A stretch of 64,000 nt of DNA from Rhynchopus sp. YZ270_cl-10 (Eukaryota), in the NCBI GenBank assembly GCA_964035575.1, contig OZ037835.1:620001-684000 (forward strand). The letters run 5' to 3'. Positions 7,181 through 34,270 of the stretch are shown here, in pieces. The notes beneath the pieces are model-generated. The model saw nothing but the letters and a program-made list of their open reading frames with translations, searched no databases and was not told where the DNA came from. Numbering within the stretch: the first letter of the stretch is position 1; every line of letters begins with the position of its first letter. Both the position numbers and the translations under genes were made by a program.

Positions 7181-7291
7181 TAATAAAATGTCATGCAAAA
7201 CCTTAATGTACACACTCTGTTGATTCTAAAAGCAGGGGGTAGAAAAAAATCGCGAATGGAAAAATGGGGCACGAGAATTGTCTTTTATGTA

Positions 7292-9134
7292 CCGTTTTTT
7301 CCGGGTGTCGGTGGGCTGTAATTGGGTGTAATTGGGCTGTAACTGGGCGTAATTGGGTGAAATTGGGCAAAAATGCCGTTTTTTGCACCTTTGACTTGCT
7401 TTTCGGTCCCCACACCCCCAATTTTTCCCACTTCTGTGCTGTTTCCCTACAAATCCATATAAAATCGAAAACGGCGATGAAAAAGATGCCTTGGTAAATG
7501 GTCACAGATGTTGCACCTGCGCGGTTCCAATGCGAGAATGGAGGACACATGTACCGTTTCCCCCAATTGACCTGCAAGAAATGGCGTAAACCCGCTGCTT
7601 TTAAACACCGGCATTTGCATTTTCGGAATCCGTCCGGCCAGTGGTGGGATCAATTTGCCGAAATGGACAAGTTCTCGTTTTTTGGTCAATTTCCGCACAG
7701 TACACAGTACACAGTACACAGTACACAGTACACAGTACACAGTACACAGTACACAGTACACAGTACACAGTACACAGTACACAGTACACAGTACACAGTA
7801 CACAGTACACAGTACACAGTACACAGTACACAGTACACAGTACACAGTACACAGTACACAGTACACAGTACACAGTACACAGTACACAGTACACAGTACA
7901 CAGTACACAGTACACAGTACACAGTACACAGTACACAGTACACAGTACACAGTACACAGTACACAGTACACAGTACACAGTACACAGTACACAGTACACA
8001 GTACACAGTACACAGTACACAGTACACAGTACACAGTACACAGTACACAGTACACAGTACACAGTACACAGTACACAGTACACAGTACACAGTACACAGT
8101 ACACAGTACACAGTACACAGTACACAGTACACAGTACACAGTACACAGTACACAGTACACAGTACACAGTACACAGTACACAGTACACAGTACACAGTAC
8201 ACAGTACACAGTACACAGTACACAGTACACAGTACACAGTACACAGTACACAGTACACAGTACACAGTACACAGTACACAGTACACAGTACACAGTACAC
8301 AGTACACAGTACACAGTACACAGTACACAGTACACAGTACACAGTACACAGTACACAGTACACAGTACACAGTACACAGTACACAGTACACAGTACACAG
8401 TACACAGTACACAGTACACAGTACACAGTACACAGTACACAGTACACAGTATACAAACCACCTGATTGCCAACTTCCGAAAACCATCACCTGTACCGATA
8501 CACAAACTCCACGGTCAAAAATAGTGTTATTATTGGAGTAAACGCCAGGTGGTCTGAAGAGTGATCTGACCATATTCTCCAGGTATAACAAATGCTCAAA
8601 CAATGCATTGTCGAAGGAATATTGTACTTTCGACCACCACAGATTACATGTGTTTCTACCGGTTTTTTATGTGCTGATGTGTGCTGGGAAGCATGTCACC
8701 AGTGTTACAATTTTACAAGGTAAAAATGACCTATGTACGTATGTGAGGAAGAAGGCTGAGTGGGCATATAGTGCCACAAAATATATGGGAGGCATGCAGT
8801 CCCCTGTCCGGTTACCAAAACCCGCCCGTCATAGGCGTTCCCACTTTTCGGTGCCACACCTGAAAAGCGGGTGTCGTCACACCCTCTAGTTGAGTATCCC
8901 GTTTGACCCGCTCAGAGGCTGGACCTCACCGTGTGAGCAAGCAAAACAGGTCACCCCCTGGTAAGCCCCCCTCAAAAACACCTGAGTTGTACTAGTGGTG
9001 TGACTGGGTGTAATTGGTTGTAATTGGGCAAAATTGGGCTGTACTTGGGTTTTATTGGGTATAATTGGGCATAATTGACCCCAAGTGGGTCCAGATGGGC
9101 TCTGTTGGGTCCGGTTGGGTGGGTGAAAAAACGG
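7292..9134. mobile_element. Putative TA-target TIR element carrying the long CACAGTA array
   Basis: TA|CCGTTTTTTC ... GAAAAAACGG|TA; GGGTGTAATTGG-type subterminal repeats near both ends. TIR only 10 bp. Confidence 0.45.
7696..8451. repeat. (CACAGTA)108 heptamer array
   Basis: 756 bp that appears perfect; explains the six spurious YCVLCTV/HSTQYTV ORFs. Confidence 0.97.
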
Positions 9135-10185: not shown

Positions 10186-12684
10186 TTAGCAGTGGATGGG
10201 CACTGTGTCACCGGAAGCAGTGTTCAGGACACGCATGAGTGTTGCGTCGGCACCACACTGCGCTGTGATCTCTTTTTCCTCACCTGCGACGAACGCGGCC
10301 CAGTAGTCGGGACTCCAGCCCCACATTGCCTCTTCGTCTTCGTCGAAGTCGCGGTTGTCTACACAGACCTGGTGCACCGTCACAGAGGTGGTTCCTCGCA
10401 GGCGGCTCACGTCGCACTTTAGCACCGGTCGTATCACCGTCGAGTATGGGACGTCCGCCTGCAGTGAGCAGTACAGCGCAAACACATTCCGGCTCACGCT
10501 CTGGCGGAGGAGGTGTCCTGCCACACCCAGGCACGCGCCGATGCTTGTCATGAAGCGCTTCCCGGCTGTGCCCAGTGTGGCCGCGTACACCGTGCCTGTG
10601 CACAGCCCAACTAACACAGGGCTGTCCGTGTAAGCCCACATAGTCGATTTGTGAAGCAGCTTGCAGAAAACAAAGGAAGCCTGTGTGTGGTTCATGCTGC
10701 GACGCGAAATGTTCCAGCCCGCAACCACGTGAGACCCGAAGAGTGCTGTGACAGAGCCTTCCGTCCGTTCGAGCGAGCTGATCACCTTCCCCAGCTTCTC
10801 GTTTGCGCTGCCGATGGGGTCTGCTGACGTCTCACTGAAGCGCAGTTCGATGCGTGCGACTGTTGCTAGCTTTCCCTCGCAGTCTTGGTGTTGTGTGTGT
10901 TTGCGCTCCCTGATGGACGTGCGCACAGAGCCCGCGGAACACACTGACTGCTTTGGGGCATAGACAGCTTCAGAAGGACGCCGCAGTGCTTCCGTGACAG
11001 CCTTCTCACGCCACGGCATCGATGCGGGAATGACACACACCAAAGACACCTTCTGGCCCACACCCTTCAGCTCAATGTCTCCCATCGCAACGCTGAGCCC
11101 GCTGTCGCCGCACGCCGTCTTCCACTCGTCGTAGACTGCCTGTGGTGCTGCCACCGACCCAGCAACACAACGTGACTCAATGCGTGCTGCAACGTTCACC
11201 GTGGGGCCGAAGTAGTCTGCTCGCCCTGTGATGCCGTTGAACTCCACACGCACGTCGCCTGCATTCACACCGATGCGCAGCTGCATGCCGACCTTGCTCT
11301 CCTTCTCTGTCTTCGGTTGGGTGAAGTCCACCAACTCCTGCGGCCACGTGACCCCGTACATCCGCTCCTGCACAAGCACGCCAAAGCTGACTCCCTCCTG
11401 TGACGTGTCGAAGGACACCATGAAGGCATCCCCGATCGTCTTCACCTCGTACCCGTTCAGTTCAGCAATGCAGTCGCGGACGGCCTTGTTGTGCAGACGC
11501 ATGCCCTTCGCCATGCCCTCGGGACAGCCCTCCCACAGCTGCGTCGACGCCACAATGTCTGTGAACACGATGGCAGCACGGCCGTACACTGCACCGGGTG
11601 CGTCTGTGCGTGTCAGTGCGACCTGGTACGCATCCTCCTCAAGCACCTCCTCGCTGTCTTCCTTGAGCGACGCGAGGAAGGCTTCTGGGATGAACTGCTT
11701 GATGTCCCGCAGCAGGCCGATGATGCGCGCAAGCGACACCTGCACACGCGACCTTGGCTCGCGCTCCAGGTGCTCGAGGTTGTCCAGATCCATCACGGCG
11801 ATTGCGTCCATTGCCTCCTCCGCGTCTGCACGCACCTTCTCCATGTCTGCCACCAACCCTGACATGTAGTCCGTTACAAACATCCCGATCCACTTATCAA
11901 CAACACACAGCGTCAGACAGGTACGGTAATGCTGGTGCTCATTGAAGATGAAGGATCCTATGTTCATTGTGCTGAAGGCAGCAAACAGGAGGCACGCGAC
12001 CACGGCACCTGCAGGACTCACCCCGACGCACACACGCAGCGATGCGACACCACGCCTCAACTTCCACGTCTCCCAGAAGAAGCATGCGCACAGCACCAAC
12101 GAGAACACAGTGTTGTACCCCACAATGGAGATGCTGGCCATGGGCTTCACCTGCAGGAAGCACGTATTCGTTGCACTGATGTGCGCATCGACGTTGAACA
12201 ACAGGATCAACCCTACCACCAGGTACGGCACCATGAAGCCCATCATCAGCAACCAATGGCGGTCCTTCCACCTGGAGAGCGGGGCGTCACGCGAGGCGTC
12301 ACGCAGAATACGAAGCCGCTCCACCAACAGCGTCACCAGGGCAACCTTCCCACCTGCGTAGAAGACAGAGCAGGAGTACACTGCAAGGTGGCAGAGCCCC
12401 AGGTACGGCTTGTCCAGCGCAATAGCCGTCGAGGTGACCAGTACAAAGCAGAAAACAGCCAGGTACACCACCCACACCAGCACGCCCATATACGTTGTGC
12501 GGTCGCCGCTCGTCCCGGCAGCACGCTCGCCCATGAGGTACGCTGTCGTAGCCATCATCATCAGGTGCACCGTCTGCACAGCAGCGTCGGTCTCGCCACC
12601 TCGGTACAGCGACATCCCGATCGCAGAAAAGACAAGAGTCATCAGCGCACGGCGGAAGTACGCGTAGAACACAGCCGACGGCAT
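10186..12684 (-). CDS. 7TM GPCR-like receptor fused to a class III adenylate cyclase plus a degenerate second cyclase domain (832 aa)
   Basis: 7-8 hydrophobic segments in aa 1-275. Cyclase motifs AIVFTDIVASTQLWE, YEVKTIGDAFMV, LRIGVNAG and DYFGPTVNVAARIES keep both metal Asp, the ATP-specifying K/D and the N/R residues. The C-terminal cyclase-like repeat lacks them. Confidence 0.92.
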   Translation of the reverse strand: MPSAVFYAYFRRALMTLVFSAIGMSLYRGGETDAAVQTVHLMMMATTAYLMGERAAGTSGDRTTYMGVLVWVVYLAVFCFVLVTSTAIALDKPYLGLCHLAVYSCSVFYAGGKVALVTLLVERLRILRDASRDAPLSRWKDRHWLLMMGFMVPYLVVGLILLFNVDAHISATNTCFLQVKPMASISIVGYNTVFSLVLCACFFWETWKLRRGVASLRVCVGVSPAGAVVACLLFAAFSTMNIGSFIFNEHQHYRTCLTLCVVDKWIGMFVTDYMSGLVADMEKVRADAEEAMDAIAVMDLDNLEHLEREPRSRVQVSLARIIGLLRDIKQFIPEAFLASLKEDSEEVLEEDAYQVALTRTDAPGAVYGRAAIVFTDIVASTQLWEGCPEGMAKGMRLHNKAVRDCIAELNGYEVKTIGDAFMVSFDTSQEGVSFGVLVQERMYGVTWPQELVDFTQPKTEKESKVGMQLRIGVNAGDVRVEFNGITGRADYFGPTVNVAARIESRCVAGSVAAPQAVYDEWKTACGDSGLSVAMGDIELKGVGQKVSLVCVIPASMPWREKAVTEALRRPSEAVYAPKQSVCSAGSVRTSIRERKHTQHQDCEGKLATVARIELRFSETSADPIGSANEKLGKVISSLERTEGSVTALFGSHVVAGWNISRRSMNHTQASFVFCKLLHKSTMWAYTDSPVLVGLCTGTVYAATLGTAGKRFMTSIGACLGVAGHLLRQSVSRNVFALYCSLQADVPYSTVIRPVLKCDVSRLRGTTSVTVHQVCVDNRDFDEDEEAMWGWSPDYWAAFVAGEEKEITAQCGADATLMRVLNTASGDTVPIHC

Positions 12685-12796
12685 GGTGTTGTGTATCGTA
12701 TAGTGGTGGGTGGGGTGGGATTAAATCTGTTGATTCTAAAAACGGAGGAGGAGGGGATTTTCGATAAATAAATATTTTTTTCGAATAGATAAAAGC

Positions 12797-13699: not shown

Positions 13700-13851
13700 C
13701 ACAGCGGACTAGTCAGGGGGACTACTAGTGGAACTACTAGTCGTAACAACTAGTGCTAAACTGGTAGTGTTACTGGTGTAACACTAGTTGTAAAACACTA
13801 GTCATTTGGACCAGTAGCACTACTAGTAGTCCTCCTGACTAGTCCGCCGTG
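13700..13851. mobile_element. 152-bp MITE with CAC...GTG ends and a 2-bp TSD (CMC-like)
   Basis: TT|CACAGCGGACTAGTCAGG...CCTGACTAGTCCGCCGTG|TT; many internal ACTAGT motifs; termini resemble those of 58041-61521. Confidence 0.8.
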
Positions 13852-14184
13852 TTAAAACAAAGGAGGGGGGGGGGAATCGCGAATGGAAAAATGGGGGAAG
13901 AGATTGAAATTGCTGAACGCTTTCCTCACCCTCCTAACCCAGATCACACCTTGGTGGCAGACCATGGGTTTCTATCTGAAAGTGCGGAAGGAGAAAGGAG
14001 GAGGGGGGTCACACAAAATAATAAAAACACCCCCGTTCGTCTTTTGTTTAGTTGGTACGCTACCTCTGTAAACCCTTAGCCTGAAGTACAGATATGAGGT
14101 GAGTGCACAATAAAGGAGGAGGGAGAAATAAAAAAGTCTCAGACGAGATTTGAATTTAATATTTCTCCAGCGAATGTGCACGTA

Positions 14185-15953: not shown

Positions 15954-17839
15954 GGGTACTCTCACTTTTTCTTTTGTTTCTTGTCCCCGCCCGCTCGGAT
16001 TTTTCAGGGAGGAAAAAAAAAAAAAGTGCAGGGTTTCCGCCAAGGGGGACCGGGGGGGACCATGGTCCCCCCCAATATTTTTCCCAGAAAAATCCGGATT
16101 TTTACAGGGGTTTGGGGGGGACCATGGACCCCCCCAAGAAAAATGGGGTTTTGGAGGTTGTAGATGACCCCCCGTGGTCATGCGACCCCACCGTGCCGAG
16201 CATTTGGCTCGCTGTGTCAAAAGAAGTGGAAGAAAAGGGGGGTGGTGCAATCTTTTTAAAAAAGGGTAAAAGTAGCGTACCGTGCGCCTGCGGCGCTGTG
16301 TTGCTAGCTATGTGATATTGATATACTTCCATCGATACTTCCGTGCATTGCCCCTTTTTCTAAGGAGGCTTCGGTGCAAGCGACGGGTAGTTATTACATG
16401 TTCCCACTGCAGCACTGTAATGACTGTAGCACCATACAATAGAAAAAGCAAACACCATCACCCTCCACTCTCACAAGACCCCTTACCTTGTTAAGCTTCC
16501 ACCCCCGACCTCCGAACGAACCACCTCTACCAGACACACAGCTGTGAAGCTTGACATGGCTGCTATCAAACCTGGTGCACCCTTCGCCTCTCCACTCTGT
16601 GGTCTGCAGGGAGGCGCGCGCGGAAGCGCGCGACGACCGCTTTTGCGGGGAGAAAAAATTTTTTTTGGGGGGTCTTTTTGATGGTCCCCCCCAATTCCTG
16701 AAACCCCAAATCCTGGCGGAAACCCTGTAAGTGGGCAAAAAAAAAAAAGTGTACAGGGTTTCCACCAAGGTGGACCGGGGTGGGACCATGTCCACCCCAT
16801 TATTTTTTCCAGAAAACTCCGGATTTTCACAGGGTTCTACATGGTGACCCCCGAGAAAAATGGGGTTTGGAGGTTGATGACCCCCCGTGGTCATGCGACC
16901 AGAGCATTTGGCACGTTGTAGCTGGGCAAGTAGTGGAGTTCATCCTCGGGTGTCTACACTAATACAACCAAGTTTTCAAAAAAGGAAAAAGTAGCGTACC
17001 GTGCGCCTGCGGCGCTGTGTTGCTGACTACTGCAACATCCCCACAAGGTAGAGAACTGCACGCTCCAATCTGAGCCCCACGGCGGAGAGCAATCGGCTCG
17101 TGCAATCAAAAGAAAATGGCACGAGTAAAAAAAGTTGGTAAAGTGCGCCTGCGGCGCTGCCTTTTTTCTATCAGTTCTACAGGCGAACACTCGGCTCCCC
17201 TTTACCTTACACTGACGGGTTTTGACCAAAACCAAAAACTTGTCCATTTTGGAAAATTGACCCCACCACACAACGGACGGATTCCGGAAATGCAAATGCC
17301 GGTGTTTTCGGGCACTTTCGTATTTTGACGCCGAGGATCAGGGAGAGAAAATCTGGATTTGGGATTTCCCTACATGGATTTTGACCAAAACCAAGAATTT
17401 GGCCATTTCGGTAAAGTGACCCCACCCTGGCCACCACAGCGCGGACGGGTTCCGGAAATGCCACCCGTGGTACGTGAACACCCACTTTTTTCAGGGGAAA
17501 AAATTGCTTCCAAATGTCGGAATTTTCCGAATTTTCCGGAAAATTTCCAGAATTAGACTGAAAATGACCCTTGTTTACGAGTATGGGTTCATATTTTGCA
17601 AAAATTTAAGTCACTGAAATTTTGTCCATTTTTCCGAATATCCCCCACCACAAGCCGGGATTGGCTCGGAACTGCAACAAAACGCCCTCTTGGGCGGAAA
17701 AATACCGCACAGGTTTTTTTTCCCCCTTCACTTTTTTCCTCCACTTTTTTTTTTTTGCTTCACTTTTTTTTTCCCGCCCGCCCGCTCGGATTTTTAGGAA
17801 ACCCAAGGACAAGAAACAAAAGAAAAAGTGTGAGTACCC
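15954..17839. mobile_element. PIF/Harbinger-like non-autonomous element
   Basis: TTA|GGGTACTC(T/A)CACTTTTTCTTTTGTTTCTTGTCC TIR of about 33 bp ...AGTACCC|TTA; 3-bp TTA TSD. Confidence 0.85.
16029..16727. mobile_element. hAT-like MITE nested in 15954-17839, followed by a diverged partial copy at about 16754-17025
   Basis: TIR CAGGGTTTCCGCCA/TGGCGGAAACCCTG; TSD not clean. Confidence 0.7.
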
Positions 17840-20099
17840 TTACCCAGAAAAAACACGGGTCAGGAAAGATCTTTTGTCTTTTTTCGAGAATCTCGGGAGA
17901 AAAAAAAAAAAATCAAGATTTTCAGGATTTTTGTCTTTTTTTTTTCAGGATCTCTCGAGATCTTTGAGATCTTTGAAAAATCCTGAAAAATCTTAACGTA
18001 CACTCTCTGTTGATTCTAAAACGGGGGAGGGTAAAAAAGCGCGAAAGGTAAATTGGGGAAGAGGTTGAAAAGTTGGAACGCTTCCTCACCCCAGATCACA
18101 CTACAATACAAAGGTTTGGGTTTGAATAGGGTGGGTTCTTCTGACGATGAAACCTACTCCTTTCTAAACTTCTTCTTCTTTCCTCTTTTTTTTTTTTTTT
18201 TTTTTTTGAATAAATAAATAAAACTCCTCTCGAATTTGTTCAAGATGGAACTGAGAGAAAGAAGAAACCCCAAACCCTCCCAGACCAAACGGTCTAACCT
18301 GTTGTATTGACATAGTGTGGGGGAGAATGAGGAGCACAAGAATCGTCTTCGCGCATACTAAAAGATTTCCTACGATATGTCACAAGTGTCATGTCACCGA
18401 AAAATCTTAACGTACACTCTCTGTTGATTCTAAAACGGGGGAGGGTAAAAAAGCGCGAAAGGTAAATTGGGGAAGAGGTTGAAAAGTTGGAACGCTTCCT
18501 CACCCCAGATCACACCCAGGACCCTTGGGACCCTCAAGGGACGCTACGCGAAAAAACTCTCTGGCCCGAAATTGTTCTCTGCGGCCGCAATAAATAGAGT
18601 AACTGCGTAACTGTCTCCTTTCGATGTAAGGATTGACAAAAAATTGTAATGACCCGAAGTCGCACGTGCTTTGTCACTCTTCTTAGATATGTTTTTACAA
18701 TGCAGCAACTGCATAGGATCCCACAAGGGCATTGTTCAGATGATGTAATTTTACCCCTGACAGAAAATTTAGGCACCTACGTTGTAGTGTTCGTGTAAAG
18801 CGGGTGCGTGAGAGAGTGGTCGATGGTCGTAGTCTATGAGTCCGGGTGCGTCAATGGATCGAAGGCCCCTGAGGAGGAATGGCGTATGCGGGGAATGGGT
18901 ACTGGACCCCAAAAAACTTGCAGGGCCGTTGAAGATTGTTGAGATAATTTTTGTAGGATGAGGTCTTCATAAGACGCGGCTCGTCGGTGGATCTTAAAAC
19001 CCCCTCTCTTACCTATCGATTTGGCGAAGATCCCAAAACTAACTGGGTGGTGCTTAAAAACGGTCTGTGTGCAGGCCACGTCACCCATTTCAAGTCAGGC
19101 AAACTTCAAAGATAATTACGTGTAGTACGTGGCAATAGTGGGACGTCCAAGAAGTAGGCAATCATATGTGGATATGTGGAAGGGCCGCTACGTACTTGGT
19201 GAATAAGAACCAAAGAAGGGCGATGTTACCTTTAGTCTTTAAAATGAGACTAGCTTTAAATAGCACGCACCATGTATTCCCTGTAAACAAGTGTGTTCTG
19301 TCACCAGTTGCCTCTCTTGGAAGACTACAGTCCAGGTTGCCTCTATTTAGCTATGGTTAAGAAGCTTGCCTAGTTCTGCAAACGGCGTCGAGTAGTCGCT
19401 GTTGTGCGTCGGGTGCGCTTCCTCGGGAGCGGTTCGTCTACTATTTCGATGTTCCTGCGCGGTGGAGCAGAGGGCTCTCTCTCTCGTCTTCTTGTTGCTT
19501 CCTGCTGACCTTGCTGTTGTACAGCGTCGGGGCACTCCGCGAACCGCCCCCAGCTTTGACATCTTCTTTAGACACTGTTGTCTTCCACCTCACCCTGCGT
19601 ATCAATCTTCAGGCCTTCAAACAATGGAAGTCTCTCTCGGAGGGCTTTCAATAATTGACTCTTCCTGAGGACTTCAGACAAAAGGTTGCCTCGTATCGAG
19701 GAAATTACGGCACTGTTCCGGTCAACAAAAAGTTTCCTCAGTTTGAATAGTGGCTTCTTATGGGGGACGTCAGTCAAATAATTACAGCATCGGCAGTAGG
19801 GTCACCACAAGTATGTACCCCGCATTTAACGTAACGTGCTTGTATCCTCCAGCCACGGGGAGGTCCTCGAAGGCGTCGGCCGTGGTCGCGTGCAGGTTGA
19901 CGCCTCTGGATATCACTGAAGTAGGTGGGCTCTTGTGGAGCCGTTGCTGTTGGTGTCGATGATGTGCACGGAGGCAGATAAGCGGCCCCCGCAACTGAGT
20001 GGGAAGGTGTAGTGCCTGGTAATTTCATGTTGCAGACACCGTCGGAGTGCTCACCCCCGTTTTCATGCATGTCTGTGTAGTAATGGTAGTATAGTTGTC

Positions 20100-20765
20100 T
20101 CCAAAAGGTGCTCTGTTGCAGAAGAGGCGGTTGTGCTTGTTCGGTGACTTGGGCAGACCCTGGCGGTCAGACACCTCGGTGATGGTCTCACGGAAACGAC
20201 GCAACGGGCTCGTTGATCTACCACTTGGCACAGCCAAGTAGTCTTCCCGAATATCCTTCAGGCAGATTTCCCGACTCCTCAATCGAGCACTGCAGAAGCG
20301 GGTCGGACTTCGACAGACGCTGCAGTCCCTCAACAAACTTGGGTAGGTCGGCATGGGATCCCTCCACAGCGACACGCACAACGGGCGACACACTGTACTT
20401 CAAGTCCTTCAGGGGGTAGCACTCAGCCTCCTTCTCGTCGGTGATGGTCGCCGTCTTCACCATGAAGTTCTCTACTCCTACAAGACCCACAACGTTACCA
20501 CAGGGCACGTCCTCAAAACGGCCTCCTGGTAACATCCCATCATGAGCAGGGTACGCTGGATGTTCTTCACAGCCACGTCCTTCTTGGTTCCTGTACTCGT
20601 AGTATGGTCTCATGATGCGTGCCTTCTGTACGGCCTTGATCTTACCAGAGAAGACCCGTCCGAAAAAACGACGAAACGCCCCTTGTCTACCGCAGGAAAC
20701 ATCTTCGAACGTACATGATCAGGGGTGCGGCGGGGTCGCAGTTCTTTAGTCCCTGGAAGTAGTTG
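20100..20765 (-). pseudogene. EEF2: Frameshifted fragment of translation elongation factor 2 (about domains II-III, into IV)
   Basis: Across frames: YFQGLKNCDPAAPLIMYV, KMFPAVDKGRF, GRVFSGKI, EDVPCGNVVGLVGV, KTATITD, KYSVSPVVRVAVE, DLPKFVEGLQRLSKSDPLLQCSIEESG, EICLKDIREDY, FRETITE, KSPNKHNRLFC. These match conserved eEF2 motifs; several frameshifts. Confidence 0.93.
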
Positions 20766-21433
20766 TTGTTTTTCGGCTTGAAACACCAGAGCCCTCCTCG
20801 GTCTCAAACACTCCGGTTTTCAGCTGGTCCGCACGGTAGAAGGTGCAGAAAATTTTTGACATTCGTACACCTCTTGGAACTTCGATGCACGTGGAATAGG
20901 TCCCAACAACCGCTTGCCATCATCGTTGAAGGAATGTTGAAGCACACTGTCTCGTGAAGTCGATGTTGTAGTTTGGGATGGGAAGAACGTAATTTCCTGT
21001 CGTCTCGTGTCGAAGAACCCTAACGATGGTGCCGAAAAAGATGATGCCGAGACATCTTTGTGTTGAATCCATCTGGGCAGTAAGGCCTGTTGATGCTTGT
21101 CACCGGTGGCCACGCAGGGCAGTCTAGAGGATGTCGCCTTGGAAGTCGAGGGCGGTACCTCCGCAGGCACCTGTTCACCCACAGGATCAGCTCTACGTTG
21201 TTGTTTGCGGGTGTCACGTTCTGTGTACTTGAGTGGGTTTGAGTGGTCAGAAGGGGTGGTTGGAAAAACGGGCGCTGGCTGTCCCCTCTAGGTACTGCGA
21301 GACAAGTGACGGCTCCTCTGGGTGCGGGTGATAGTGATGTACTGTGTCATTGTCGGAAATTTCGATCTGGATAGCACACTTAGGCATCTCCGCGTATCTG
21401 CTGGTCCTCTCGTAAAATGGCTGAAATGGCTGA

Positions 21434-22631
21434 GAAAGTGGTTCATATACCACATATGCCCCATATGACTGCTAAAAGTGGTTCTTATTCCCCATATGTC
21501 TGCGAAAAGTGGATCTTATACCACATATGCCTGCGAAAAGTGGATCTTATACCCCATATGTCTGCGAAAAGTGGATCTTATACCCCATATGCCTGCGAAA
21601 AGTGGTTCTTATACCACATATGCCTGCGAAAAGTGGTTCTTATACCACATATGCCTGCGAAAAGTGGTTCTTATACCACATAGGCCTGCGAAAAGTGGAT
21701 CTTATACCCCATATGCCTGCGAAAAGTGGTTCTTATACCACATATGCCTGCGAAAAGTGGTTCTTATACCACATATGCCTGCGAAAAGTGGTTCTTATAC
21801 CACATATGCCTGCGAAAAGTGGATCTTATACCCCATATGCCTGCGAAAAGTGGATCTTATACCCCATATGTCTGCGAAAAGTGGTTCTTATACCACATAT
21901 GCCTGCGAAAAGTGGATCTTATACCACATATGCCTGCGAAAAGTGGATCTTATACCCCATATGTCTGCGAAAAGTGGTTCTTATACCACATATGCCTGCG
22001 AAAAATGGATCTTATACCCCATATGCCTGCGAAAAGTGGATCTTATACCCCATATGTCTGCGAAAAGTGGTTCTTATACCCCATATGCCTGCGAAAAGTG
22101 GATCTTATACCCCATATGCCTGCGAAAAGTGGTTCTTATACCCCATATGTCTGCGAAAAGTGGTTCTTATACCACATATGCCTGCGAAAAGTGGATCTTA
22201 TACCCCATATGCCTGCGAAAAGTGGATCTTATACCACATATGCCTGCGAAAAGTGGATCTTATACCCCATATGTCTGCGAAAAGTGGTTCTTATACCACA
22301 TATGCCTGCGAAAAGTGGATCTTATACCCCATATGCCTGCGAAAAGTGGTTCTTATACCACATATGCCTGCGAAAAGTGGATCTTATACCCCATATGTCT
22401 GCGAAAAGTGGTTCTTATACCACATATGCCTGCGAAAAGTGGATCTTATACCACATATGCCTGCGAAAAGTGGTTCTTATACCACATATGCCTGCGAAAA
22501 GTGGTTCTTATACCACATATGCCTGCGAAAAGTGGATCTTATACTCCATATGCCTGCGAAAAATGGATCTTATACCCCATATGCCTGCGAAAAGTGGATC
22601 TTATACCCCATATGCCACATATGCCTGCGAA
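21434..22631. repeat. 31-bp minisatellite, about 37 copies
   Basis: Unit GCGAAAAGTGG(A/T)TCTTATACC(A/C)CATATG(C/T)CT, head to tail with no spacers. Confidence 0.96.
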
Positions 22632-23481
22632 TCACGGCGTTCTTCTTCGTCGCGTCCCTCGTGTCGCGTTCACCCCTCCGAGCAAGCTCGAGAAGTGGCC
22701 CATCACCTCCCTCCTCAGCATGGACGGCTACACCCCGCGGAACTCCTTGCGTACGAGAAATGCGCGCTTTCGGATGGCTGTGTGCCTACAAGCCGAAGCC
22801 TACGGCACCAGCCCCCTCACCATCATCGATGTCCCGAAGTCGGCGTTCAAGGATATTGACCTGGACACGCTTCTCGCTGCATCGCAGCAGACGGTGTACC
22901 GTCTGGAGCAAGACGGGGGTATTGTGTTCCGGATCCGTTCCCATCTTCTCACTTCGTAACATGTCCTGTACTTCATTTTTTTTTTTTTTTTTTTTTTTTT
23001 TGAATAAATAAATAAAACTCCTCTCGAATTTGTTCAAGATGGAACTGAGAGAAAGAAGAAACCCCAAACCCTCCCAGACCAAACGGTCTAACCTGTTGTA
23101 TTGACATAGTGTGGGGGAGAATGAGGAGCACAAGAATCGTCTTCGCGCATACTAAAAGATTTCCTACGATATGTCACAAGTGTCATGTCACCGAAAAAAA
23201 AAGGAAAAAAAAGGGAAAAAAGAGAAAAAAAGATGAAAAAGATCTTGAAAATCTTTTTTTTCTCAAAAAAAAGATAAAAAAGATTTTTGGGATTTTGAAA
23301 AATCTTTTTGGGGAAAAAAAAAAAAAAGATTTTGAAAATCTTTTTTTTTTTTTTCAAAGATTTCTCAAGATCTCGAGATTTTTCATGAAATTTCATGGAT
23401 TTTTCCAGGATTTTTCAGGATTTTTTCAGGATTTTCCCAGGATTTTCAAATCTTTTCTCTTTTTTTTTTTCTCCCAAAAAT

Positions 23482-24229
23482 CAGGGCGTTCGCTATCGCC
23501 ATCGTTTTTTCCTGATCGTGGCGAAATGCCAAAAACCCCGAAATTTTCGTTTTTTTACTAGTGCTTAAAATAGGTCAAAAAAAATTTTCCCGCCGGAGAG
23601 AAGTTAGTTCGTGGGGTGAATCCCTGGTACTGAATGGTCAAAAAAAATTTGCGATTTGCGCGTGATCCCTTCCCCAGCACAAGTGATATTACAGCTGAAC
23701 TTTCCTGAAACTAAAACCAGCAAAACGATGGAGAATTTCATCAATCCCCCCTCACTGAGGGTCTCTTTGTGTTGTTTAATCAAACAGATGTACAAGAGAG
23801 GCATCTGTCATATGAGACTTCATCCTTATTTTGATTATTTTCAACTCTCTGCCGTTGAAAGTAGAGTTGACACGAGCAGTGACACCTTCTATAACAGGGG
23901 GTACGGTACACCTTCAGCAGACTGCAGGATTGAGGAGCGAGCGGGAGTGCTGGGGAAACTTCCTCTCACGGCAGGCGGGTTTGCGGATGATTTTGAGTAC
24001 AGTGGACACCCCTCTACGACCCCCCCTCCGGGGGGGTCTACAGGGTGGTGGGGAGAAATCTCTCTCTCTCTTTTTTTTTTTTTTTTCCCCCTTTTTTTAT
24101 TTATTTATTTATTTATACAGGGTTTCGCCCCGGTGGGGCGAAGCCCTGGGGCGAAATAAAATGTCATTTTTTCAGGAAAAGATTTTTTTAACGAAAAAAA
24201 ATATTTTTCGCCCCGGGGCGAACGCCCTG
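23482..24229. mobile_element. hAT-like non-autonomous element
   Basis: TIR CAGGGCGTTCGC/GCGAACGCCCTG; 8-bp TSD CCAAAAAT; the empty site CTCCCAAAAATCTT is present in the 25917-26420 copy. Confidence 0.9.
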
Positions 24230-24598: not shown

Positions 24599-25916
24599 AT
24601 ATACTTTCTTTTCTAAACGAAAAGAAGCAAGCGAAAAATGTACCTGAAAAAGAAACCTTAGGGGTAATGACACACACGGTACGGCAGGAATGCGTCGTGT
24701 ATGTGTCTGGGCCAGGCACGTCTCCAGAATGAGGATGGGGAGTGATCTCAAGAGCGCGTCAAACGCTTTCAGGAAAGTCTGGCAGCGTCCTCAACTGGGT
24801 TTATTACATGAACCCAACAAGCACATATGTGCATCCTCAGTCCTTCAACAAACATGATCGAGCGACTCGTTACTCTTTGCTTGTTGCTTAAAAGACTATG
24901 AAACGGGGAGGGAAAAAATGAGGTTGTTTGTTGCTCGCTTCATGTGTTTTTTTTTTTTTTGCTTCAGACAAATTGGTGTTAGGAAATACCGCCCTAGGAA
25001 TGATTCTGGGGCGAAAACCATTTTGGGACAGAAATATTCTGAGGCGGAACAAAAACTGGGACAATCGAGGGGGGGGGGGGGGTAGGGGGTCCGACTCCCT
25101 AGTAAATGACCGTACAAAAAACTCATTATTAAACTTCTGGTCATCTCCAAGGCAACTGCGGGTGAAAAACACCCTCAGAGTGGGTCACAGGGGGCCTGTG
25201 GGTCGAAAAACGACCCAGAAGCCACCCCAGAATACCAAAAAATGGAAAAAAATAGTGAAAAAACGGCTTTTTTCAGGTTTTGGCCATGTTGGGCAAAACA
25301 GCGATTTTTCAAGAAAAAAACCAAAAAACGGCACATTTTTTGACATCACAAAGCCTCCTTTGGCACAAATATACCCCAAAAGTGGCCTGTGAGTCCATTC
25401 CAACCTGTTTTGGACATATTTGACACTTTTGGAAGTGTTTTTTTGGTGTTTTCACGCTGAAAAACACCCCCAAAAAATCCTTGGACGGTCCTTGGACAGC
25501 ACTGCCACCATTGCTCCGACCACATTCTCGGCCATATTTTTGCTTAAAACCCCCGAAAAAGGGCCCCCGGAACCCCAATCTTTCCAAATTTCCACCTCAT
25601 CCCCACCCAAACACCGCAAAAACACGACAGAAAATCGTCTTAAAAAACACACTTTTTTCAAAAAGGTCGTCAGGCAGGTTCCATAATGGACTTTTTAAAA
25701 AAAGTGTGTTTTTTAAGACGATTTTCTGTGGTGTTTTTGCGGTGTTTGGGTGGGGATGAGGTGGAAATTTGGAAAGATTGGGGTTCCGGGGGCCCTTTTT
25801 CGGGGGTTTTAAGCAAAAATATGGCCGAGAATGTGGTCGGAGCAATGGTGGCAGTGCTGTCCAAGGACCGTCCAAGGATTTTTTGGGGGTGTTTTTCAGC
25901 GTGAAAACACCAAAAA

Positions 25917-26420
25917 CACGGGTCGGGAAAGATCTTTTTTTTTTTTTTTTTTTTTCGAGAAAAAAAATCCTCTTCTCCCGAAAAAAAAAAAAAAAAAAAG
26001 ATTTTTGGGAGAAAAAAAAAAAGAGAAAAGATTTGAAAATCCTGGGAAAATCCTGAAAAAATCCTGAAAAATCCTGGAAAAATCCATGAAATTTCATGAA
26101 AAATCTCGAGATCTTGAGAAATCTTTGAAAAAAAAAAAAAAGATTTTCAAAATCTTTTTTTTTTTTTTCCCAAAAAGATTTTTCAAAATCCCAAAAATCT
26201 TTTTTATCTTTTTTTTGAAAAAAAAAAAGATTTTCAAGATCTTTTTCATCTTTTTTTCTCTTTTTTTCCTTTTTTTCCTTTTTTTTTCAGGATTTTTCAA
26301 AGATCTCAAAGATCTCGAGAGATCCTGAAAAAAAAAGACAAAAATCCTGAAAATCTTGATTTTTTTTTTTTTTCTCTCGAAAAAAGACAAAAAAAGACAA
26401 AAGATCTTTCCTAACCCGTG
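25917..26420. mobile_element. 504-bp AT-rich MITE (intact copy of the 17854-24321 family)
   Basis: TIR CACGGGT(C/T)(G/A)GGAAAGATCTTTT; 6-bp TSD CAAAAA, confirmed against the uninterrupted left arm of the palindrome. Confidence 0.9.
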
Positions 26421-26793
26421 CAAAAAAACACTTCCAAAAGTGTCAAATATGTCCAAAACAGGTTGGAATGGACTCACAGGCCACTTTTGGGGTATATTTG
26501 TGCCAAAGGAGGCTTTGTGATGTCAAAAAATGTGCCGTTTTTTGGTTTTTTTCTTGAAAAATCGCTGTTTTGCCCAACATGGCCAAAACCTGAAAAAAGC
26601 CGTTTTTTCACTATTTTTTTCCATTTTTTGGTATTCTGGGGTGGCTTCTGGGTCGTTTTTCGACCCACAGGCCCCCTGTGACCCACTCTGAGGGTGTTTT
26701 TCACCCGCAGTTGCCTTGGAGATGGCCAGAAATTTAAAAATGAGTTTTTTGTACGTTGGGTCCCAGCCAAAAACGGCTGAGTCGGACCCCCTA

Positions 26794-27833: not shown

Positions 27834-28926
27834 GGGGCGTCCCGGGCACGGCGTAATTCAGGTGTAATGGGGTGTAATGGAGTGTAATGGAGGGAATTTA
27901 AACTTTTTGCTTTTTTTGCGCTTTCCCCCCGTTTTTTCAACACGAAAAGTCCAAAAAAGGTGACAACAAAAATTTTTTGGGCGAGTGGAGCAAAAAAAAA
28001 TTTGCCTGGCTGACCATTGCCGAAGGAATTTTGCACTTTTGACCACCACAGATTACACGTTGTTTTACGATTTTTTCTATGCACTTATGCGTACAGTGCC
28101 ACCGGTGTTAAATTTTTACTGGCGTGGCTACATAACCGATTCCCCATGTTTCTACCGTGTTTCTACACAGTACACAGTACACAGTACACAGTACACAGTA
28201 CACAGTACACAGTACACAGTACACAGTACACAGTACACAGTACACAGTACACAGTACACAGTACACAGTACACAGTACACAGTACACAGTACACAGTACA
28301 CAGTACACAGTACACAGTACACAGTACACAGTACACAGTACACAGTACACAGTACACAGTACACAGTACACAGTACACAGTACACAGTACACAGTACACA
28401 GTACACAGTACACAGTACACAGTACACAGTACACAGTACACAGTACACAGTACACAGTACACAGTACACAGTACACAGTACACAGTACACAGTACACAGT
28501 ACACAGTACACAGTACACAGTACACAGTACACAGTACACAGTACACAGTACACAGTACACAGCACTGTACAAGGCAAAAATGACCAAAACAGCTGATGTT
28601 TTGGCCGAATGCCACCCTATCAGGAATATTTTCATGTTTTCACACAAATTTTTTCTGGCCTCAATACCCCCAAACTACACGATTTTCGGTTCCGGCAAAT
28701 TTTTGGAGCACCAAATATCGCGAAAAAATTCAATTTTTTTGGTGTCGTCCGCACATCCCTTTAGCAAAGACCAAAACACCAAGGCGTTGTAATTCATGTG
28801 TAATGGGGTGTAATGGGGCGTAATGGGGTGTAAGTGGGTGTAAGTGGGTGTAAGTGGGTGTAATTCGGTGAAATGGGGTGAAAGTGTGCGTAAGTGGGTG
28901 TTAGTGTGGTACCGCCGGGACACCCC
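27834..28926. mobile_element. Putative nested TIR element carrying the second CACAGTA array
   Basis: GGGGCGTCCCGG vs CCGGGACACCCC; flanks ATATTAT/ATATTAC; TAATGGGGTG-type subterminal repeats; internal similarity to about 8605-8732. Confidence 0.55.
28164..28562. repeat. (CACAGTA)57 heptamer array
   Basis: 399-bp perfect tandem repeat. Confidence 0.97.
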
Positions 28927-29827: not shown

Positions 29828-31966
29828 CTAGTACACACTGTCCCTGGCTGTGAGGGGGGCCACTTCGTAAAGGCCGGATCTGCCTTTGATCGGTTTGGTC
29901 ACGTTTTGGAGTGTGACCGGCAGTGTGGCGTGCTGTGGGGGCTCGTACAGACACCGCACACCCACACGAACCGCCTCGTCGCACAGCGCGGAGCTCCGGT
30001 GCACGGTCGCCCCCATGACAGTCACAAAGCGCTGCTTGCGTGCCCCGACCGTACCGTGCTGCACAGTGCCACTCACCACCGCCATCCCTGCAAGCGGAAC
30101 CCCAGACAGCGCACGCTGCGCAAAGCGGATCGCGTTCTCTGTGTGCGCCGGGGCAGACCGGGTGAGGTTCCACCCTACGTGGACACGGTTCCCTAGCATG
30201 GCGACAACAGTTCCACAACTCTGATCCAAGGCGACCGTGAGGGTGGAGAGGGCGTTGCTCATTGTCTGCATGACCGCAGTGTTGCCTTCTTCACCCACAT
30301 CCACCTCAAGCACCCCTAAGGTCGCTTCAAAGCACCGTGCAGGGGTGAGGGGGAAGCACGCAGACTCCGCTAGGGGAACCCCACCAAGGGAGTTGGTCGA
30401 GCTCGCCCGCGACGCGTTGCCTACAGAACTGCAGTTGGATATGTTGCGAGGCAGTTCAATGTTCAGTGTGTTGGCTGCCACCAGAGGGCGCTGCTTGCGC
30501 CCTGCCAGGGACAGCGGCCACACACAGCATACAAAGGTCGTCCCCGATACACCCTTCAAATCTAGAGCCTCAGAGGCACCTACAACAGCAGAGATCGCAC
30601 CGCACTCTGCAGACCATAGGTCTGTGCGTACTGCCACTGCGCCTGGTGTGCAGATGCTCTCAAGGCGTGACGCAACGTTGACAGTGTGTCCGAAGTAGTC
30701 GATTCTCCCGGTCAGTGTGCTCGAATCTATCGAGACCGGTCCGGAGTTGACACCAATGCGAACGGTGAGGCCGCACCACAGTGCGCCCTGCTTTGCGCAG
30801 ATCGGTGCGTTTTCGAGGAGAGAGGCGGGCCAGTCTGCTTCACGTAGAAGTTCGTGTACACGAAGGCCAAATTCGATACCGTGCTGGGTGGAGGAGAAGG
30901 CGACCATGAAGGCGTCGCCGATGGTTTTGACCTCATACCCGCCGAAGGAGAGCATGGTAGCGCGCATGATGGTATTGTGGATGCGGAGTGCTGCGTGCAT
31001 ACCGTCGGGGGCGTGCTGCCAGATCCATGTGGAGGAACGGATGTCCGTGAACACCACCGTCGCCACCTCGCTCACAACCCCCGGCGCGACTGACATATTC
31101 TGCGCTGTCTGTGTGTCCGCTTCATCAGCCTCCTCAAACAGCGCAGCAGGGAGGTACGGACGGTACTTCCTCAGGTTTCTCTCCATCTGTTTGAGAGATG
31201 CATGCATGCCCTGTGGAAGCTGTGTCTCCGAATCAAGCATGCGCGCCACACCCTCCACGTCGTACCCCGCAAGCAGACCCGCAATCTCCTGCACAACGTT
31301 GATGGTCCGCTCCATTGATGCCTGCTCTGCCGCAGCGTCGCGAGCAAAGCCTCGGGTGACAAGAAAGTCTATCGTCAGCATGGAGCACGATGAGATGAAG
31401 CTCTCCGGAAAGTCCACTGCGCATGGCAGCTCTTCGCAGTCCGTCAGCGCATCGAAGTACGCACGACGTCCATACTCACCCCCCTGCGGCCGCAGCCCAG
31501 GCAGATCCAACAAACCAAATCGAAACGTCTCTTCACATGCCATGATTGCAAACCAGATCACAGTGCAAACAACTACTGCAACAGGGTACATGGACGGCAC
31601 GTCCATGACAAGCATTAAGTCCAAAATGGCGACCTGGAGAGGCCAGTTCGGGGTCAGCACAGTACGCCCATTCAGGTCTGCAACGAGAACCACAAAGCTT
31701 AGAAGCATGAGCGAGTTTGCAACGAAGGCGGGTGGGAGAGCGCGTTTGCACAGCACCATGATGATGACCGTTGGGTAGAAGAATAAGATGCCCACATACC
31801 CGACAAGCATGATCTGCGACTCCATCTGCTGCTGCAACGTCAAGACCGTGCCAGAAAGGACAAACGGCAGCGCGACCACTGCGAAAAAAAAGAAGATGGT
31901 CCGTCGCTGCTGTGCCTTCTTCCCAAGCGTGTTGTCCATGGACAAAGCATCGTGTAGATACCCCAT
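29828..31966 (-). CDS. Multi-pass membrane adenylate cyclase with a degenerate second cyclase domain (712 aa)
   Basis: About 6 TM segments; motifs VVFTDIRSSTWIW, YEVKTIGDAFMV, VRIGVNSG and DYFGHTVNVASRLES are intact. Confidence 0.93.
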   Translation of the reverse strand: MGYLHDALSMDNTLGKKAQQRRTIFFFFAVVALPFVLSGTVLTLQQQMESQIMLVGYVGILFFYPTVIIMVLCKRALPPAFVANSLMLLSFVVLVADLNGRTVLTPNWPLQVAILDLMLVMDVPSMYPVAVVVCTVIWFAIMACEETFRFGLLDLPGLRPQGGEYGRRAYFDALTDCEELPCAVDFPESFISSCSMLTIDFLVTRGFARDAAAEQASMERTINVVQEIAGLLAGYDVEGVARMLDSETQLPQGMHASLKQMERNLRKYRPYLPAALFEEADEADTQTAQNMSVAPGVVSEVATVVFTDIRSSTWIWQHAPDGMHAALRIHNTIMRATMLSFGGYEVKTIGDAFMVAFSSTQHGIEFGLRVHELLREADWPASLLENAPICAKQGALWCGLTVRIGVNSGPVSIDSSTLTGRIDYFGHTVNVASRLESICTPGAVAVRTDLWSAECGAISAVVGASEALDLKGVSGTTFVCCVWPLSLAGRKQRPLVAANTLNIELPRNISNCSSVGNASRASSTNSLGGVPLAESACFPLTPARCFEATLGVLEVDVGEEGNTAVMQTMSNALSTLTVALDQSCGTVVAMLGNRVHVGWNLTRSAPAHTENAIRFAQRALSGVPLAGMAVVSGTVQHGTVGARKQRFVTVMGATVHRSSALCDEAVRVGVRCLYEPPQHATLPVTLQNVTKPIKGRSGLYEVAPLTARDSVY

Positions 31967-34270
31967 TGGTTCTGTGAGGGGTGGTGTTTATGTTTTGGGT
32001 ACGGGGCGGGAGAATAAAATCTGTTCGATAAAAGAAACGCAAGCTTTTTTGCTTTATCTTGTTCAGGGAGAAGTGAGGAGCGTCACAAGTGTCATGTCCC
32101 CGAAAAAAATAAGTCGATGTAAGTGCAAATGCTCGTGTACCAATTGCTCCGCAGGTTATCGAACCGCGGAGAGATTGAAAAGACCGTGTACAGAATTGTG
32201 CGAAACAGCAAATGGATTGAATCACCGTACACTGCCGCCAAACACCTAACAAAAAAAAATGAGAATGCACTATCCAGAAAAACTGCTGCTCATCGTCGTG
32301 GGTTCGTTTACAGCTACGGCTTGTTAGATCAAAAAGCACGTCAACATCGAAACTCATTATCGCAAACTTTCCCTTTCACCTTCACACAAACGTCATCATC
32401 CACGCCGAGGCTGGGGCGGCGCAGAGGGGTTGTGTTGCGAGAACAGTGAGTTCTCTCCTCCGCAGGTGAGTCTGCTGACACCGTTCGTGTGCATGTATCG
32501 TTGGTTATTGGAGGGACGTTTTTGATGATGGGTGTGCCGGAGTTGCATACTGCACTTGACTGGGAGCACAGTAGCTCGCCAGGTGCTTGATGTGGCTGCG
32601 CCCTGCACATATGACTGCCACTGCTCGTCGGACTCAAGCTGCGACACATGCAGTGGTGCACCTACCGACAAGCTGCGCGCCGAGCCCTGCACCGGCGACA
32701 CCTTCACACACGACAGCACCTGCGGGGATGGCAGTCCCTACATACTGTCGAACCACTCCTGCTGGGTGAAGGACGACTGCTCGGAGATCGACCTGACGTC
32801 CCCGCACACCCACAAGACCGATGGCAGTGTCAAGACCACGATAGGTGCGGTGGTGCTGTCGCCGTGCGTCTTTGTGTATTCTTTGTTGGGCATCTTTTGT
32901 GGGATGTCGTGAAGCGGTGCGCTGTGTCTTGTCCAGACTGTGGGCTTTGTGAGTGGCTTGGGTCCTGTTGGCGTGGACGGTGTAGCGGTGGTGGTGGTGG
33001 TGGTGGGGGCTTGCACACCAGGACGAAGCCTTCCGAAGCTACAACACCAACGGGTACGAAGACGTCGAACACAGTGCCGAGGCTTCAGCACCACCCGTAC
33101 ACCAGCGGGCCACCACACAAAGATCACCAGAGCATACCATCCTGCGTCTTTTAACACATCCGACATCTTTTCAAAAAAAAAAAAAAGCTGTGTGTTTTAT
33201 CAGAAATTGTGTGAAAGATTAAAGTGAAAGAGTTGGGGTGGAGCAGACACAAAGTTTTATTGTTCACTTTGTCAAAATCTCTTTGTTTTTCTCTTTGTCT
33301 ATTTTTCCTGCATTTTTTATTCTCTTCTTTGTACTTTCTTTTGTTTTGGTTGTTGTTAGATAAGCTCAATCGCCTATCGAGTTCTGTGAATAGCACGGAA
33401 CTCCTTTTCATGTGTATCCATGGAAATCAGTATCATATGTGATACCGGGGTCAGAGAAAAATAAAGGGTGCGGAGGGTGGGAAAATTTTTGAAAAAAGGT
33501 GTCGTTTGAGAAAAAACAAACAAACGGATGCGCTGTGTGAAAAACGAGTGTTTCTCTGCGCGTGATATTTTGTGGGGAAGAATAAAACATTATGAAAAAA
33601 GCTCGTTGCGTTCCCACTATCGTTTCCGCTGCGCTCTCACTAGTGTTCCCACTCCATTCGGTTTTCTCTTACTTAACAAAAAAATAGTGAGTTTCAAGGT
33701 GTTCTCGGTTTAAAATTATTATGCATCCACTTGCCGTTTGGATAAACAAAACAAAGGCGAAAGGGGGTTTGGGGGGAAGAGTTTAATTCTTGAACGCAAT
33801 CCCCACACTCAGTCACAACACATTTCAAAATTCTGGCGTTAATGGATCGCTAGGGTGGGTAAACTACCCAATCCAAAAATTATCGACCCTATTTTCTTAC
33901 AACCTGGTATGGTCATTTCACACCCTCAGCCAACATCACACAAAAAGATCACGTTTTCAAAAACGGATACTCGCATTTGAAGGTACAAATAAGGCTCCAC
34001 TCGGTTCAAAACGTGCATTTTTGAACCGAACGACAACCCTCTCTGAACTCACGGCATTATTTTCTACCCGATTAGTGGAGTAGATATTTGTTATCATCCT
34101 CTGGACGCATTTTCAAAAGAATGGGCGTAAAAAATAAAACCTGAACACTCCATCACACGTGGACACATCGCCTAAGCACCGGGCAGTGTGAATACCTATA
34201 AGAGCAGTAAAAAAAAAAATCGCTGTTATGAACCATAATGACTGGTTCAGATAGCTTCTCCTGTCGCTCT

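What the first reader, a model, noticed from the sequence alone, without database searches (positions are those of the whole stretch)
20100..20765. Captured eEF2 fragment inside the split-repeat element
Seen: about 220 codons of intron-free, frameshifted eEF2 lie between unrelated sequences in the element body, in the element's inferred sense orientation. Inference: an abundant host mRNA was captured, for example by RT template switching, making this a cargo-carrying YR element. The fragment is heavily decayed while the terminal repeats look identical, so capture probably predates the latest jump.
Basis: partly seen in the sequence, partly recalled or inferred. Interest (0 to 1): 0.75.

Follow-up and report, generated by a model that had tools for sequence, protein, structure and literature searches.

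The report
Jumping element carrying dead eEF2 piece
A dead 742-base piece of the gene for translation factor eEF2, likely the host's own, rides inside a 5.2-kb mobile element of a marine protist and recurs with the same breaks elsewhere; it was likely picked up once and then spread by a tyrosine-recombinase retrotransposon, and it shows no sign of protein function.

Summary
Largely confirmed. The fragment runs 20838→20097 (minus strand; eEF2 residues 351–608 of 857), with 8 frameshifts, 1 stop and a 13-codon deletion. It decays without selection and groups with a diplonemid eEF2 that is probably the host's (100/99, 86% identical).

It lies in an element with identical split repeats (A1–body–B1–A2–B2). 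One six-base core stands at both ends, at the inner junction, and once in an empty paralogue of the target. That is the integration pattern proposed for tyrosine-recombinase (YR) elements. No recombinase or reverse transcriptase was found in it.

It is not a one-off. A sister ORF on another contig shares two frameshifts, and contigs over the body and both junctions run at 3.3–3.7 times baseline depth.

Corrections: 'intron-free' proves nothing, because the donor-type gene has no intron there. A second insert, from another multicopy gene, lies on the opposite strand. RNA capture is likely but unproven. I found no paper on cargo in YR elements and no earlier scan note.

The parts
17985..23198 (-). 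Whole non-autonomous split-direct-repeat element, 5.2 kb (A1-body-B1-A2-spacer-B2 read on the minus strand)
22980..23198 (-). Terminal repeat A1 (219 bp, ends in poly(A) on the minus strand); identical to A2
22642..22935 (+). Second insert: residues 91-188 of a 530-aa multicopy ORF (P0160), 95 of 98 residues identical, opposite strand to eEF2; transposase-like by recalled motifs only
21455..22616 (.). Tandem array, 31-bp unit x 37.5; also upstream of the same ORF in sisters P0155 and P0157
20839..21454 (.). Body, origin unknown; shared by sister contigs
20097..20838 (-). Decayed eEF2 fragment, residues 351-608 of 857; 8 frameshifts (near 20786, 20709, 20665, 20592, 20515, 20268, 20230, 20196), stop near 20218, 13-codon deletion at 20268
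18516..20096 (.). Body, origin unknown; no Pfam hit in six frames, no relative for one frame among 1.84 billion representatives
18399..18515 (-). Internal repeat B1 (117 bp); identical to B2
18186..18404 (-). Internal repeat A2 (219 bp); shares the six-base core 18399-18404 with B1
18102..18185 (-). 84-bp spacer; A2 + spacer + B2 (about 420 bp) has the layout of SIRE in T. cruzi
   Evidence: PMC6681497 passage
17985..18101 (-). Terminal repeat B2 (117 bp), with the six-base core at 17985-17990
17854..17990 (.). Left part of the interrupted target repeat (92% identical to the empty paralogue)
23193..23482 (.). Right part of the interrupted target repeat (98% identical to the empty paralogue); core at 23193-23198
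26000..26420 (-). Uninterrupted paralogue of the target repeat, with the core once (26283-26288); stands in for the empty site

Best explanation
A 742-bp piece of an eEF2 coding exon, likely the host's own, sits as dead cargo in a non-autonomous split-direct-repeat element of a diplonemid; it was likely captured once by a reverse-transcriptase template switch onto eEF2 mRNA and was then likely copied by the RT and tyrosine recombinase of a VIPER/TATE-type partner. Shown: the fragment and its neutral decay, its place in one diplonemid eEF2 lineage, the repeat architecture, the shared junction core, and a sister ORF with the same frameshifts on another contig. Inferred, in order: (1) capture during reverse transcription (about 0.65 against a DNA-level event); (2) decay and splitting into subfamilies, one about 12% apart; (3) recent spread of this subfamily to about four copies, each cycle renewing A1=A2 and B1=B2 and integrating by crossover in the six-base core (about 0.75); (4) the enzymes come in trans from an autonomous relative that I could not see. 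The opposite-strand insert is likely a separate event.
For: ARCHITECTURE: A1..B1 A2 B2 with fully identical pairs, as described for VIPER and TATE (PMC6681497 passages). CORE: present at the left, inner and right junctions and once in the empty paralogue. [quoted passage not shown] SISTERS: P0163 is 114/117 identical, carries the same out-of-frame stretch, heads a cluster of 3, and lies on a 1,722,895-bp contig. The array+ORF end recurs on contigs of 1,722,895 and 631,829 bp, and a variant on one of 1,539,504 bp; the window's contig is 1,020,051 bp. DEPTH: median of 6 body contigs over 8 baseline contigs is 3.4, 3.4, 3.7 and 3.3 in four runs; in X1, contigs bridge both eEF2 junctions at depth 322 and 346 against a baseline of about 102. 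TREE: 100/99 with P0121/P0123/P0125 and P0009 inside diplonemids; 207/241 identical to P0121. NO SELECTION: 22/129 invariant columns changed against 12/112 variable ones; three intact relatives changed 0/129, 0/129 and 4/133. FORM: a partial mRNA piece cut at both ends, without poly(A) or target duplication, then re-mobilised, is what LTR template-switch retrocopies look like (PMC5131818 passages). PARTNER CLASS: an orthogroup annotated as TATE has 281 members in D. papillatum and 3 in R. humris (PMC10161547 supplement row).
Against: No YR, RT or Gag sequence was found in this copy, and no autonomous partner was seen (no genome held). The captured span has no intron in the donor-type gene, so RNA origin is not marked. 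The second insert is antisense to the inferred RNA. Orientation comes from architecture alone; read on the plus strand the repeat order is also A..B A..B. The flanks of the sister copies were not seen. The tool warns that contig depth is no copy number. The core is A-rich and occurs 18 times, both strands counted, in the 421-bp target repeat, so the match is less special than six bases suggests. Identical termini are only modest evidence of a fresh jump: P = 0.006-0.07 at 0.77% divergence from sister contigs. The fragment's 96/80 pairing with the decaying paralogue P0009 rests on one clear shared change.
Confidence: 0.55

Rival explanations
1. The element is mobile as described, but the eEF2 piece entered as DNA: by break repair copying from one of the several eEF2 genes, or inside a nested DNA transposon whose remains are the opposite-strand ORF piece and the tandem array.
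For: The donor exon is unbroken for over 2 kb, so a DNA piece would also lack introns. There are at least four eEF2 loci of this lineage, one of them decaying. The second insert is on the other strand, and its donor is a near-identical multicopy ORF on 4 contigs whose motifs recall a DDE transposase (recalled, not confirmed).
Against: No inverted repeat better than E 0.7 (at most 18 bp) was found in the body, array-to-array matches left out. No target duplication flanks the piece. A random DNA piece is far less likely to be eEF2 than a random mRNA is (general knowledge of eEF2 expression; rough, and conserved genes are noticed more easily).
Confidence: 0.3
2. One old insertion was multiplied passively, by segmental duplication or inside the roughly 420-bp target repeat, and not by the element's own ends.
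For: Sister flanks were not seen. The target repeat is itself very abundant (bins over 17808-17943 far above baseline). Duplication of dead elements is discussed for trypanosomatids (PMC12278014 passage).
Against: The termini are 336/336 identical while the body differs from sister contigs at 19 of 2457 sites and by a 13-nt gap. A related copy of one repeat in the window is only 97% identical, so identity is not the family default. Diverged variants keep body and cargo together (records 5 and 24).
Confidence: 0.1
3. The ends belong to another class (a Penelope-like partial tandem, or two elements side by side), or the fragment is a lone processed pseudogene that landed here.
For: A poly(A) run ends A1 and A2. 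Penelope-like elements make partial tandems and can hold tandem arrays (PMC8557442 passages).
Against: A partial tandem gives one repeat pair, not two crossed identical pairs with a shared junction core. No hammerhead or other Rfam family reached its cut-off. A lone pseudogene is excluded by the sister ORF and the bridging contigs and by the lack of poly(A) or target duplication.
Confidence: 0.05

Closest known systems
VIPER / TATE (VIPER-like YR retrotransposons of kinetoplastids) and SIRE; PMC6681497, PMC12278014 (passages)
   Same: A1 at one end and B1, A2, B2 at the other; repeat pairs up to 100% identical; similar sizes (T. cruzi A 173 and B 219 bp; here 219 and 117 bp); A2+spacer+B2 is a unit of about 420 bp like SIRE; no ordinary target duplication; euglenozoan host.
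   Different: No Gag, YR or RT/RH found; the body is a mosaic of a host-type gene piece, a piece of another multicopy ORF, a tandem array and unknown DNA; diplonemid host. Sequence likeness of the termini to VIPER or SIRE was not tested.
Ngaro-like and PAT-like elements; PMC4157794, PMC7192593 (passages)
   Same: Split direct repeats; a short junction core at both ends after integration (proposed there for DIRS elements).
   Different: The core is six bases here, three in the DIRS examples; subgroup cannot be told without the enzymes.
LTR-mediated retroposition by template switch (Bs1 of maize; Drosophila retrocopies); PMC5131818 (passages)
   Same: Partial host coding sequence cut at both ends, in place of the element's ORFs, without poly(A); further rounds as a non-autonomous element; more than one donor in one body.
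   Different: The carrier has split direct repeats, not LTRs; intron loss and junction microsimilarity could not be shown; one insert is antisense.
Pack-MULE / Pack-CACTA / Helitron gene-fragment capture; PMC13317346 (passages)
   Same: Non-autonomous element with decaying host gene fragments from several donors.
   Different: No terminal inverted repeats or target duplication of that kind; the ends are of YR type.

Membership tests
YR retrotransposon with split direct repeats (VIPER-, Ngaro-, PAT-like) | Repeat order A1-body-B1-A2-B2 with identical pairs | tested here: met
   219/219 and 117/117
YR retrotransposon with split direct repeats (VIPER-, Ngaro-, PAT-like) | Integration by crossover in a short core shared by element junction and target; core once in the empty site | tested here: met
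   the empty site is a paralogue (26000-26420), not the orthologous locus, and the core is common in that repeat
YR retrotransposon with split direct repeats (VIPER-, Ngaro-, PAT-like) | Encodes Gag, YR and RT/RH | tested here: not met
   18 frames of the non-eEF2, non-array body, no such family; one frame, no hit. It is at most a non-autonomous derivative.
YR retrotransposon with split direct repeats (VIPER-, Ngaro-, PAT-like) | Autonomous partner with the same termini in the genome | not testable with these tools
   no genome held; TATE-annotated proteins exist in other diplonemids
VIPER-like subgroup specifically | RT groups with VIPER/TATE; termini related to SIRE | not tested
   no RT in this copy; no VIPER or SIRE sequence was fetched
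VIPER-like subgroup specifically | Short solo unit made of A2+B2 (SIRE) | tested here: inconclusive
   termini and spacer show depths of order 100-400 times baseline in X1 against 3-4 for the body (summed short contigs at 80% likeness); no whole solo unit elsewhere in the window
Template-switch retrocopy in a retroelement | Partial coding sequence cut at both ends, no poly(A), no target duplication | tested here: met
Template-switch retrocopy in a retroelement | Loss of parental introns | tested here: inconclusive
   genomic ORFs of 4 of 4 closest genes are unbroken over the span
Template-switch retrocopy in a retroelement | Microsimilarity between mRNA and element at both junctions | not testable with these tools
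   no host nucleotide sequence and no cargo-free parent; no joint skipping the cargo among the 15 of 44 joints shown
Template-switch retrocopy in a retroelement | Further rounds of mobilisation with the cargo | tested here: met
   sister ORF with shared frameshifts on another contig; depth ratio 3.3-3.7; sister flanks not seen
LINE-made processed pseudogene | Poly(A) tail and own target duplication, single locus | tested here: not met
Penelope-like element | One pseudo-LTR pair from a partial tandem, often with a hammerhead ribozyme | tested here: not met
   two crossed repeat pairs; no Rfam match at cut-off. Some clades lack hammerheads, so the ribozyme test alone is weak.

The most novel reading that the evidence does not exclude
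Diplonemids harbour a 'Pack-YR' class: non-autonomous split-repeat elements that keep only their ends and use tyrosine-recombinase retrotransposon machinery to pick up and shuffle pieces of host mRNAs and of other mobile elements. With termini about a hundred times more common than this body, many different cargos may ride on the same ends. A piece of an essential gene such as eEF2 could shield the element from RNA silencing, or feed small RNAs against the host gene.
Probability: 0.3. Interest if true: 0.65.

Novelty: new variant of a known kind. Interest (0 to 1): 0.45.

Why it matters
Gene-fragment capture is well described for LTR elements, Pack-type DNA transposons and Helitrons. My four searches (open-licence papers only) listed no paper on it in split-repeat YR elements. 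If the RNA route holds, template switching onto host mRNA also occurs in YR retroelements, whose replication is poorly tested. The locus also gives a clean filled-versus-empty comparison for how such an element integrates, in a protist group where the papers I read describe no such termini. The cargo itself is dead as a protein, which limits the stakes.

Tried and rejected
FAILED OR EMPTY SEARCHES
- No RNA holder listed.
- Metagenome scans with a terminus pattern and with P0160 found nothing usable.
- Rfam over 17500-24000: 20 weak matches, none near a cut-off. A hammerhead-like string that I noticed in the spacer got no support.
- Pfam of 18 body frames: no family above cut-off. phmmer of 1 of 6 frames of 18521-20098: 0 hits.
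- The protein atlas gave no answer.
- Scan notes: none for this genome; 8 listed by words, none on this subject.
- PMC15765 and PMC6431247 could not be read.

THE SECOND INSERT'S DONOR
The identity of P0160 stays open: Pfam 0, PDB sequences nothing below E 0.75, single-sequence fold pLDDT 35, fold search no match at E<=0.001 (uninformative). Its likeness to Chapaev/Transib-type DDE transposases is from recalled motifs only.

REJECTED
- Foreign eEF2.
- Lone insertion.
- Selected or functional protein.
- Descent from the decaying paralogue P0009 is neither accepted nor excluded: one clear shared change, plus one that is an alignment slip.

Full report
Observation. The minus-strand ORF 20221-20715 matches solved eEF2 chains at E 4e-32. 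A frameshift-aware alignment to three diplonemid eEF2 proteins places the fragment at 20838 to 20097 (742 bp; residues 351-608 of 857), with 8 frameshifts, one stop and a 13-codon deletion. It has no poly(A), and the longest direct repeat around it is 4 bp. Changes fall on invariant columns at least as often as on variable ones (22/129 against 12/112, Fisher P 0.19). Three intact relatives changed 0/129, 0/129 and 4/133 invariant columns. The protein is dead and shows no purifying selection.

Origin of the cargo. The best single-domain hits are diplonemid (names). I built a tree of the fragment and 38 proteins chosen from the 147 then in hand: 16 diplonemid or diplonemid-clustered sequences plus a spread of others. 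The fragment falls in a 100/99 clade with P0121, P0123, P0125 (identical over the span, on three ENA contigs) and P0009. It is 207/241 identical to P0121 and shares four residues found in none of nine other references. P0009 lies on a contig of 1,539,504 bp, the same length as the contig that bears a variant of this element's other ORF. That ties this eEF2 lineage to the element's genome by inference. The 96/80 pairing with P0009 rests on one clear shared change and is not firm. All four genomic ORFs run without a break across the captured span and drift into apparent intron sequence only far outside it. The missing introns are therefore no evidence of an mRNA origin.

The carrier. Two repeat pairs are fully identical: 219 bp (22980-23198, 18186-18404) and 117 bp (18399-18515, 17985-18101). 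Read on the minus strand this is A1-body-B1-A2-spacer-B2, the order given for VIPER and TATE, where SIRE equals A2+B2 (PMC6681497, passages; PMC12278014, passages). On the plus strand the order is formally the same, with the long part after the inner junction. 'Sense' is thus inferred from where VIPER and Ngaro keep their ORFs; PAT elements vary in this (PMC4157794, passages). The flanks 17854-17990 and 23193-23482 match two adjoining parts of one uninterrupted 421-bp repeat at 26000-26420 (92% and 98%). The same six bases stand at the left end, the inner B1/A2 junction, the right end and once in that empty paralogue. This is the outcome proposed for YR integration: one core from the element, one from the target (PMC7192593, passages). 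The core is A-rich and occurs 18 times in the target repeat, both strands counted, so the match is suggestive, not unique. No Gag, YR or RT was found in 18 frames of the rest of the body, array excluded. One frame had no relative among 1.84 billion representatives. TATE-annotated proteins exist in other diplonemids (PMC10161547, passages and one supplement row).

Is the cargo part of a family? Yes. P0163 is 114/117 identical to the window ORF, with the same out-of-frame stretch between two frameshifts. It heads a cluster of 3 whose other members I could not list (one may be the window's own), and lies on a contig of 1,722,895 bp. The array-plus-ORF end of the body recurs on contigs of 1,722,895 and 631,829 bp, and a variant on one of 1,539,504 bp; the window's contig is 1,020,051 bp. 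I laid contigs from 4 of the 8 listed runs. The median depth of 6 of the 7 listed body contigs per run (the 12%-diverged one left out), over the 8 listed baseline contigs, was 3.4, 3.4, 3.7 and 3.3. In X1, contigs bridge the two eEF2 junctions at depth 322 and 346 against a baseline near 102. The tool warns that depth is no copy number, but it agrees with the contig count. P0163 keeps two ancestral residues that the window copy has lost, and its different ending fits the 13 extra bases seen in the bridging contigs, so copies have diverged since capture. All four runs also hold a variant about 12% different that joins eEF2 to the upstream body. One X4 contig joins a less decayed 3' end to the downstream body (records 5 and 24). 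A contig with intact eEF2 letters at about five times baseline in X1 and X2 appears to stop at the 20097 boundary and may be the host genes; I could not prove that. None of the 15 joints shown, of 44, skips the cargo.

Timing. The body differs from sister contigs at 19 of 2457 sites, yet 336 bp of paired repeats show no difference (P 0.006-0.07). The cargo is 14% diverged from the donor-type protein. Gene conversion or assembly polishing could also have equalised the repeats.

A second insert. Positions 22642-22935 on the plus strand are residues 91-188 of P0160, a 530-aa ORF whose cluster spans 4 contigs. It is cut at both ends and lies antisense to the eEF2 piece. Its motifs recall a Chapaev/Transib-type DDE transposase, but that is from memory: Pfam, PDB and a low-confidence fold gave nothing. 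The body is a mosaic, and not every piece is in the inferred sense orientation.

Mechanism. A template switch onto eEF2 mRNA is my preferred route (about 0.65). The piece is purely coding, cut at both ends, without tail or duplication, in the inferred sense orientation and re-mobilised, as in LTR-mediated retrocopies (PMC5131818, passages). eEF2 is also a far larger share of mRNA than of DNA (general knowledge). A DNA-level entry remains open. Spread by RT and YR supplied in trans is about 0.75; passive duplication cannot be excluded without sister flanks. A Penelope-like partial tandem does not explain two crossed repeat pairs (PMC8557442, passages; Rfam blank).

Novelty and limits. Fragment capture is known for LTR, Pack-type and Helitron elements (PMC13317346, passages). 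Searches, seen as listings, showed no paper on cargo in split-repeat YR elements; most subscription papers, the original Ngaro and SIRE papers included, are outside this library or were not held. The supplements of PMC6681497 were not looked at; those of PMC10161547 were searched for six terms only, and either may describe such elements. I file this as a new variant of a known kind: it works like a non-autonomous VIPER/Ngaro-type element with cargo, but membership of a named YR subgroup is not established. Interest 0.45.

Noticed in passing
window 47032-47145; weaker at 7197-7269, 13850-13931, 37957-37988, 54902-54949: Further copies of the 117-bp repeat: one 97% identical and also starting at an A-rich core, but followed by different sequence and with no 219-bp partner in the window.
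   Followed up: partly
window 24851-24941, 52518-52609, 53123-53214, 37884-37957: A second family of short repeats that resembles the 117-bp repeat by eye; the pair at 52518 and 53123 brackets a stretch at very high depth and may be another split-repeat or SIRE-like unit.
   Followed up: no
window 25111-26755: Nested near-perfect inverted repeats (335 bp and 229 bp, 99%) that enclose the 421-bp target repeat.
   Followed up: no
P0009 (ENA contig of 1,539,504 bp): Near full-length eEF2 copy, 93.6% identical to P0123, with changes at conserved sites: a likely decaying genomic duplicate.
   Followed up: partly
P0160 and its cluster (4 ENA contigs): Near-identical multicopy 530-aa ORF with no family match; possibly the transposase of a young DNA transposon (recalled motifs only).
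   Followed up: partly
window 10186-12720, 29828-31987, 41654-49669, 34271-35734, 53573-54523: A membrane-type cyclase gene (Pfam hit for the first; the second and the three tandem paralogues judged by eye) and leucine-rich-repeat genes (Pfam hit for 34271-35734).
   Followed up: no
window 7696-8455 and 28164-28562: Two long, near-perfect arrays of the same 7-bp unit with similar short-repeat flanks, probably one repeat family.
   Followed up: no
window 20839-21100, plus strand: One frame reads like a decayed protein-coding stretch; no Pfam support. It could be a third insert.
   Followed up: no
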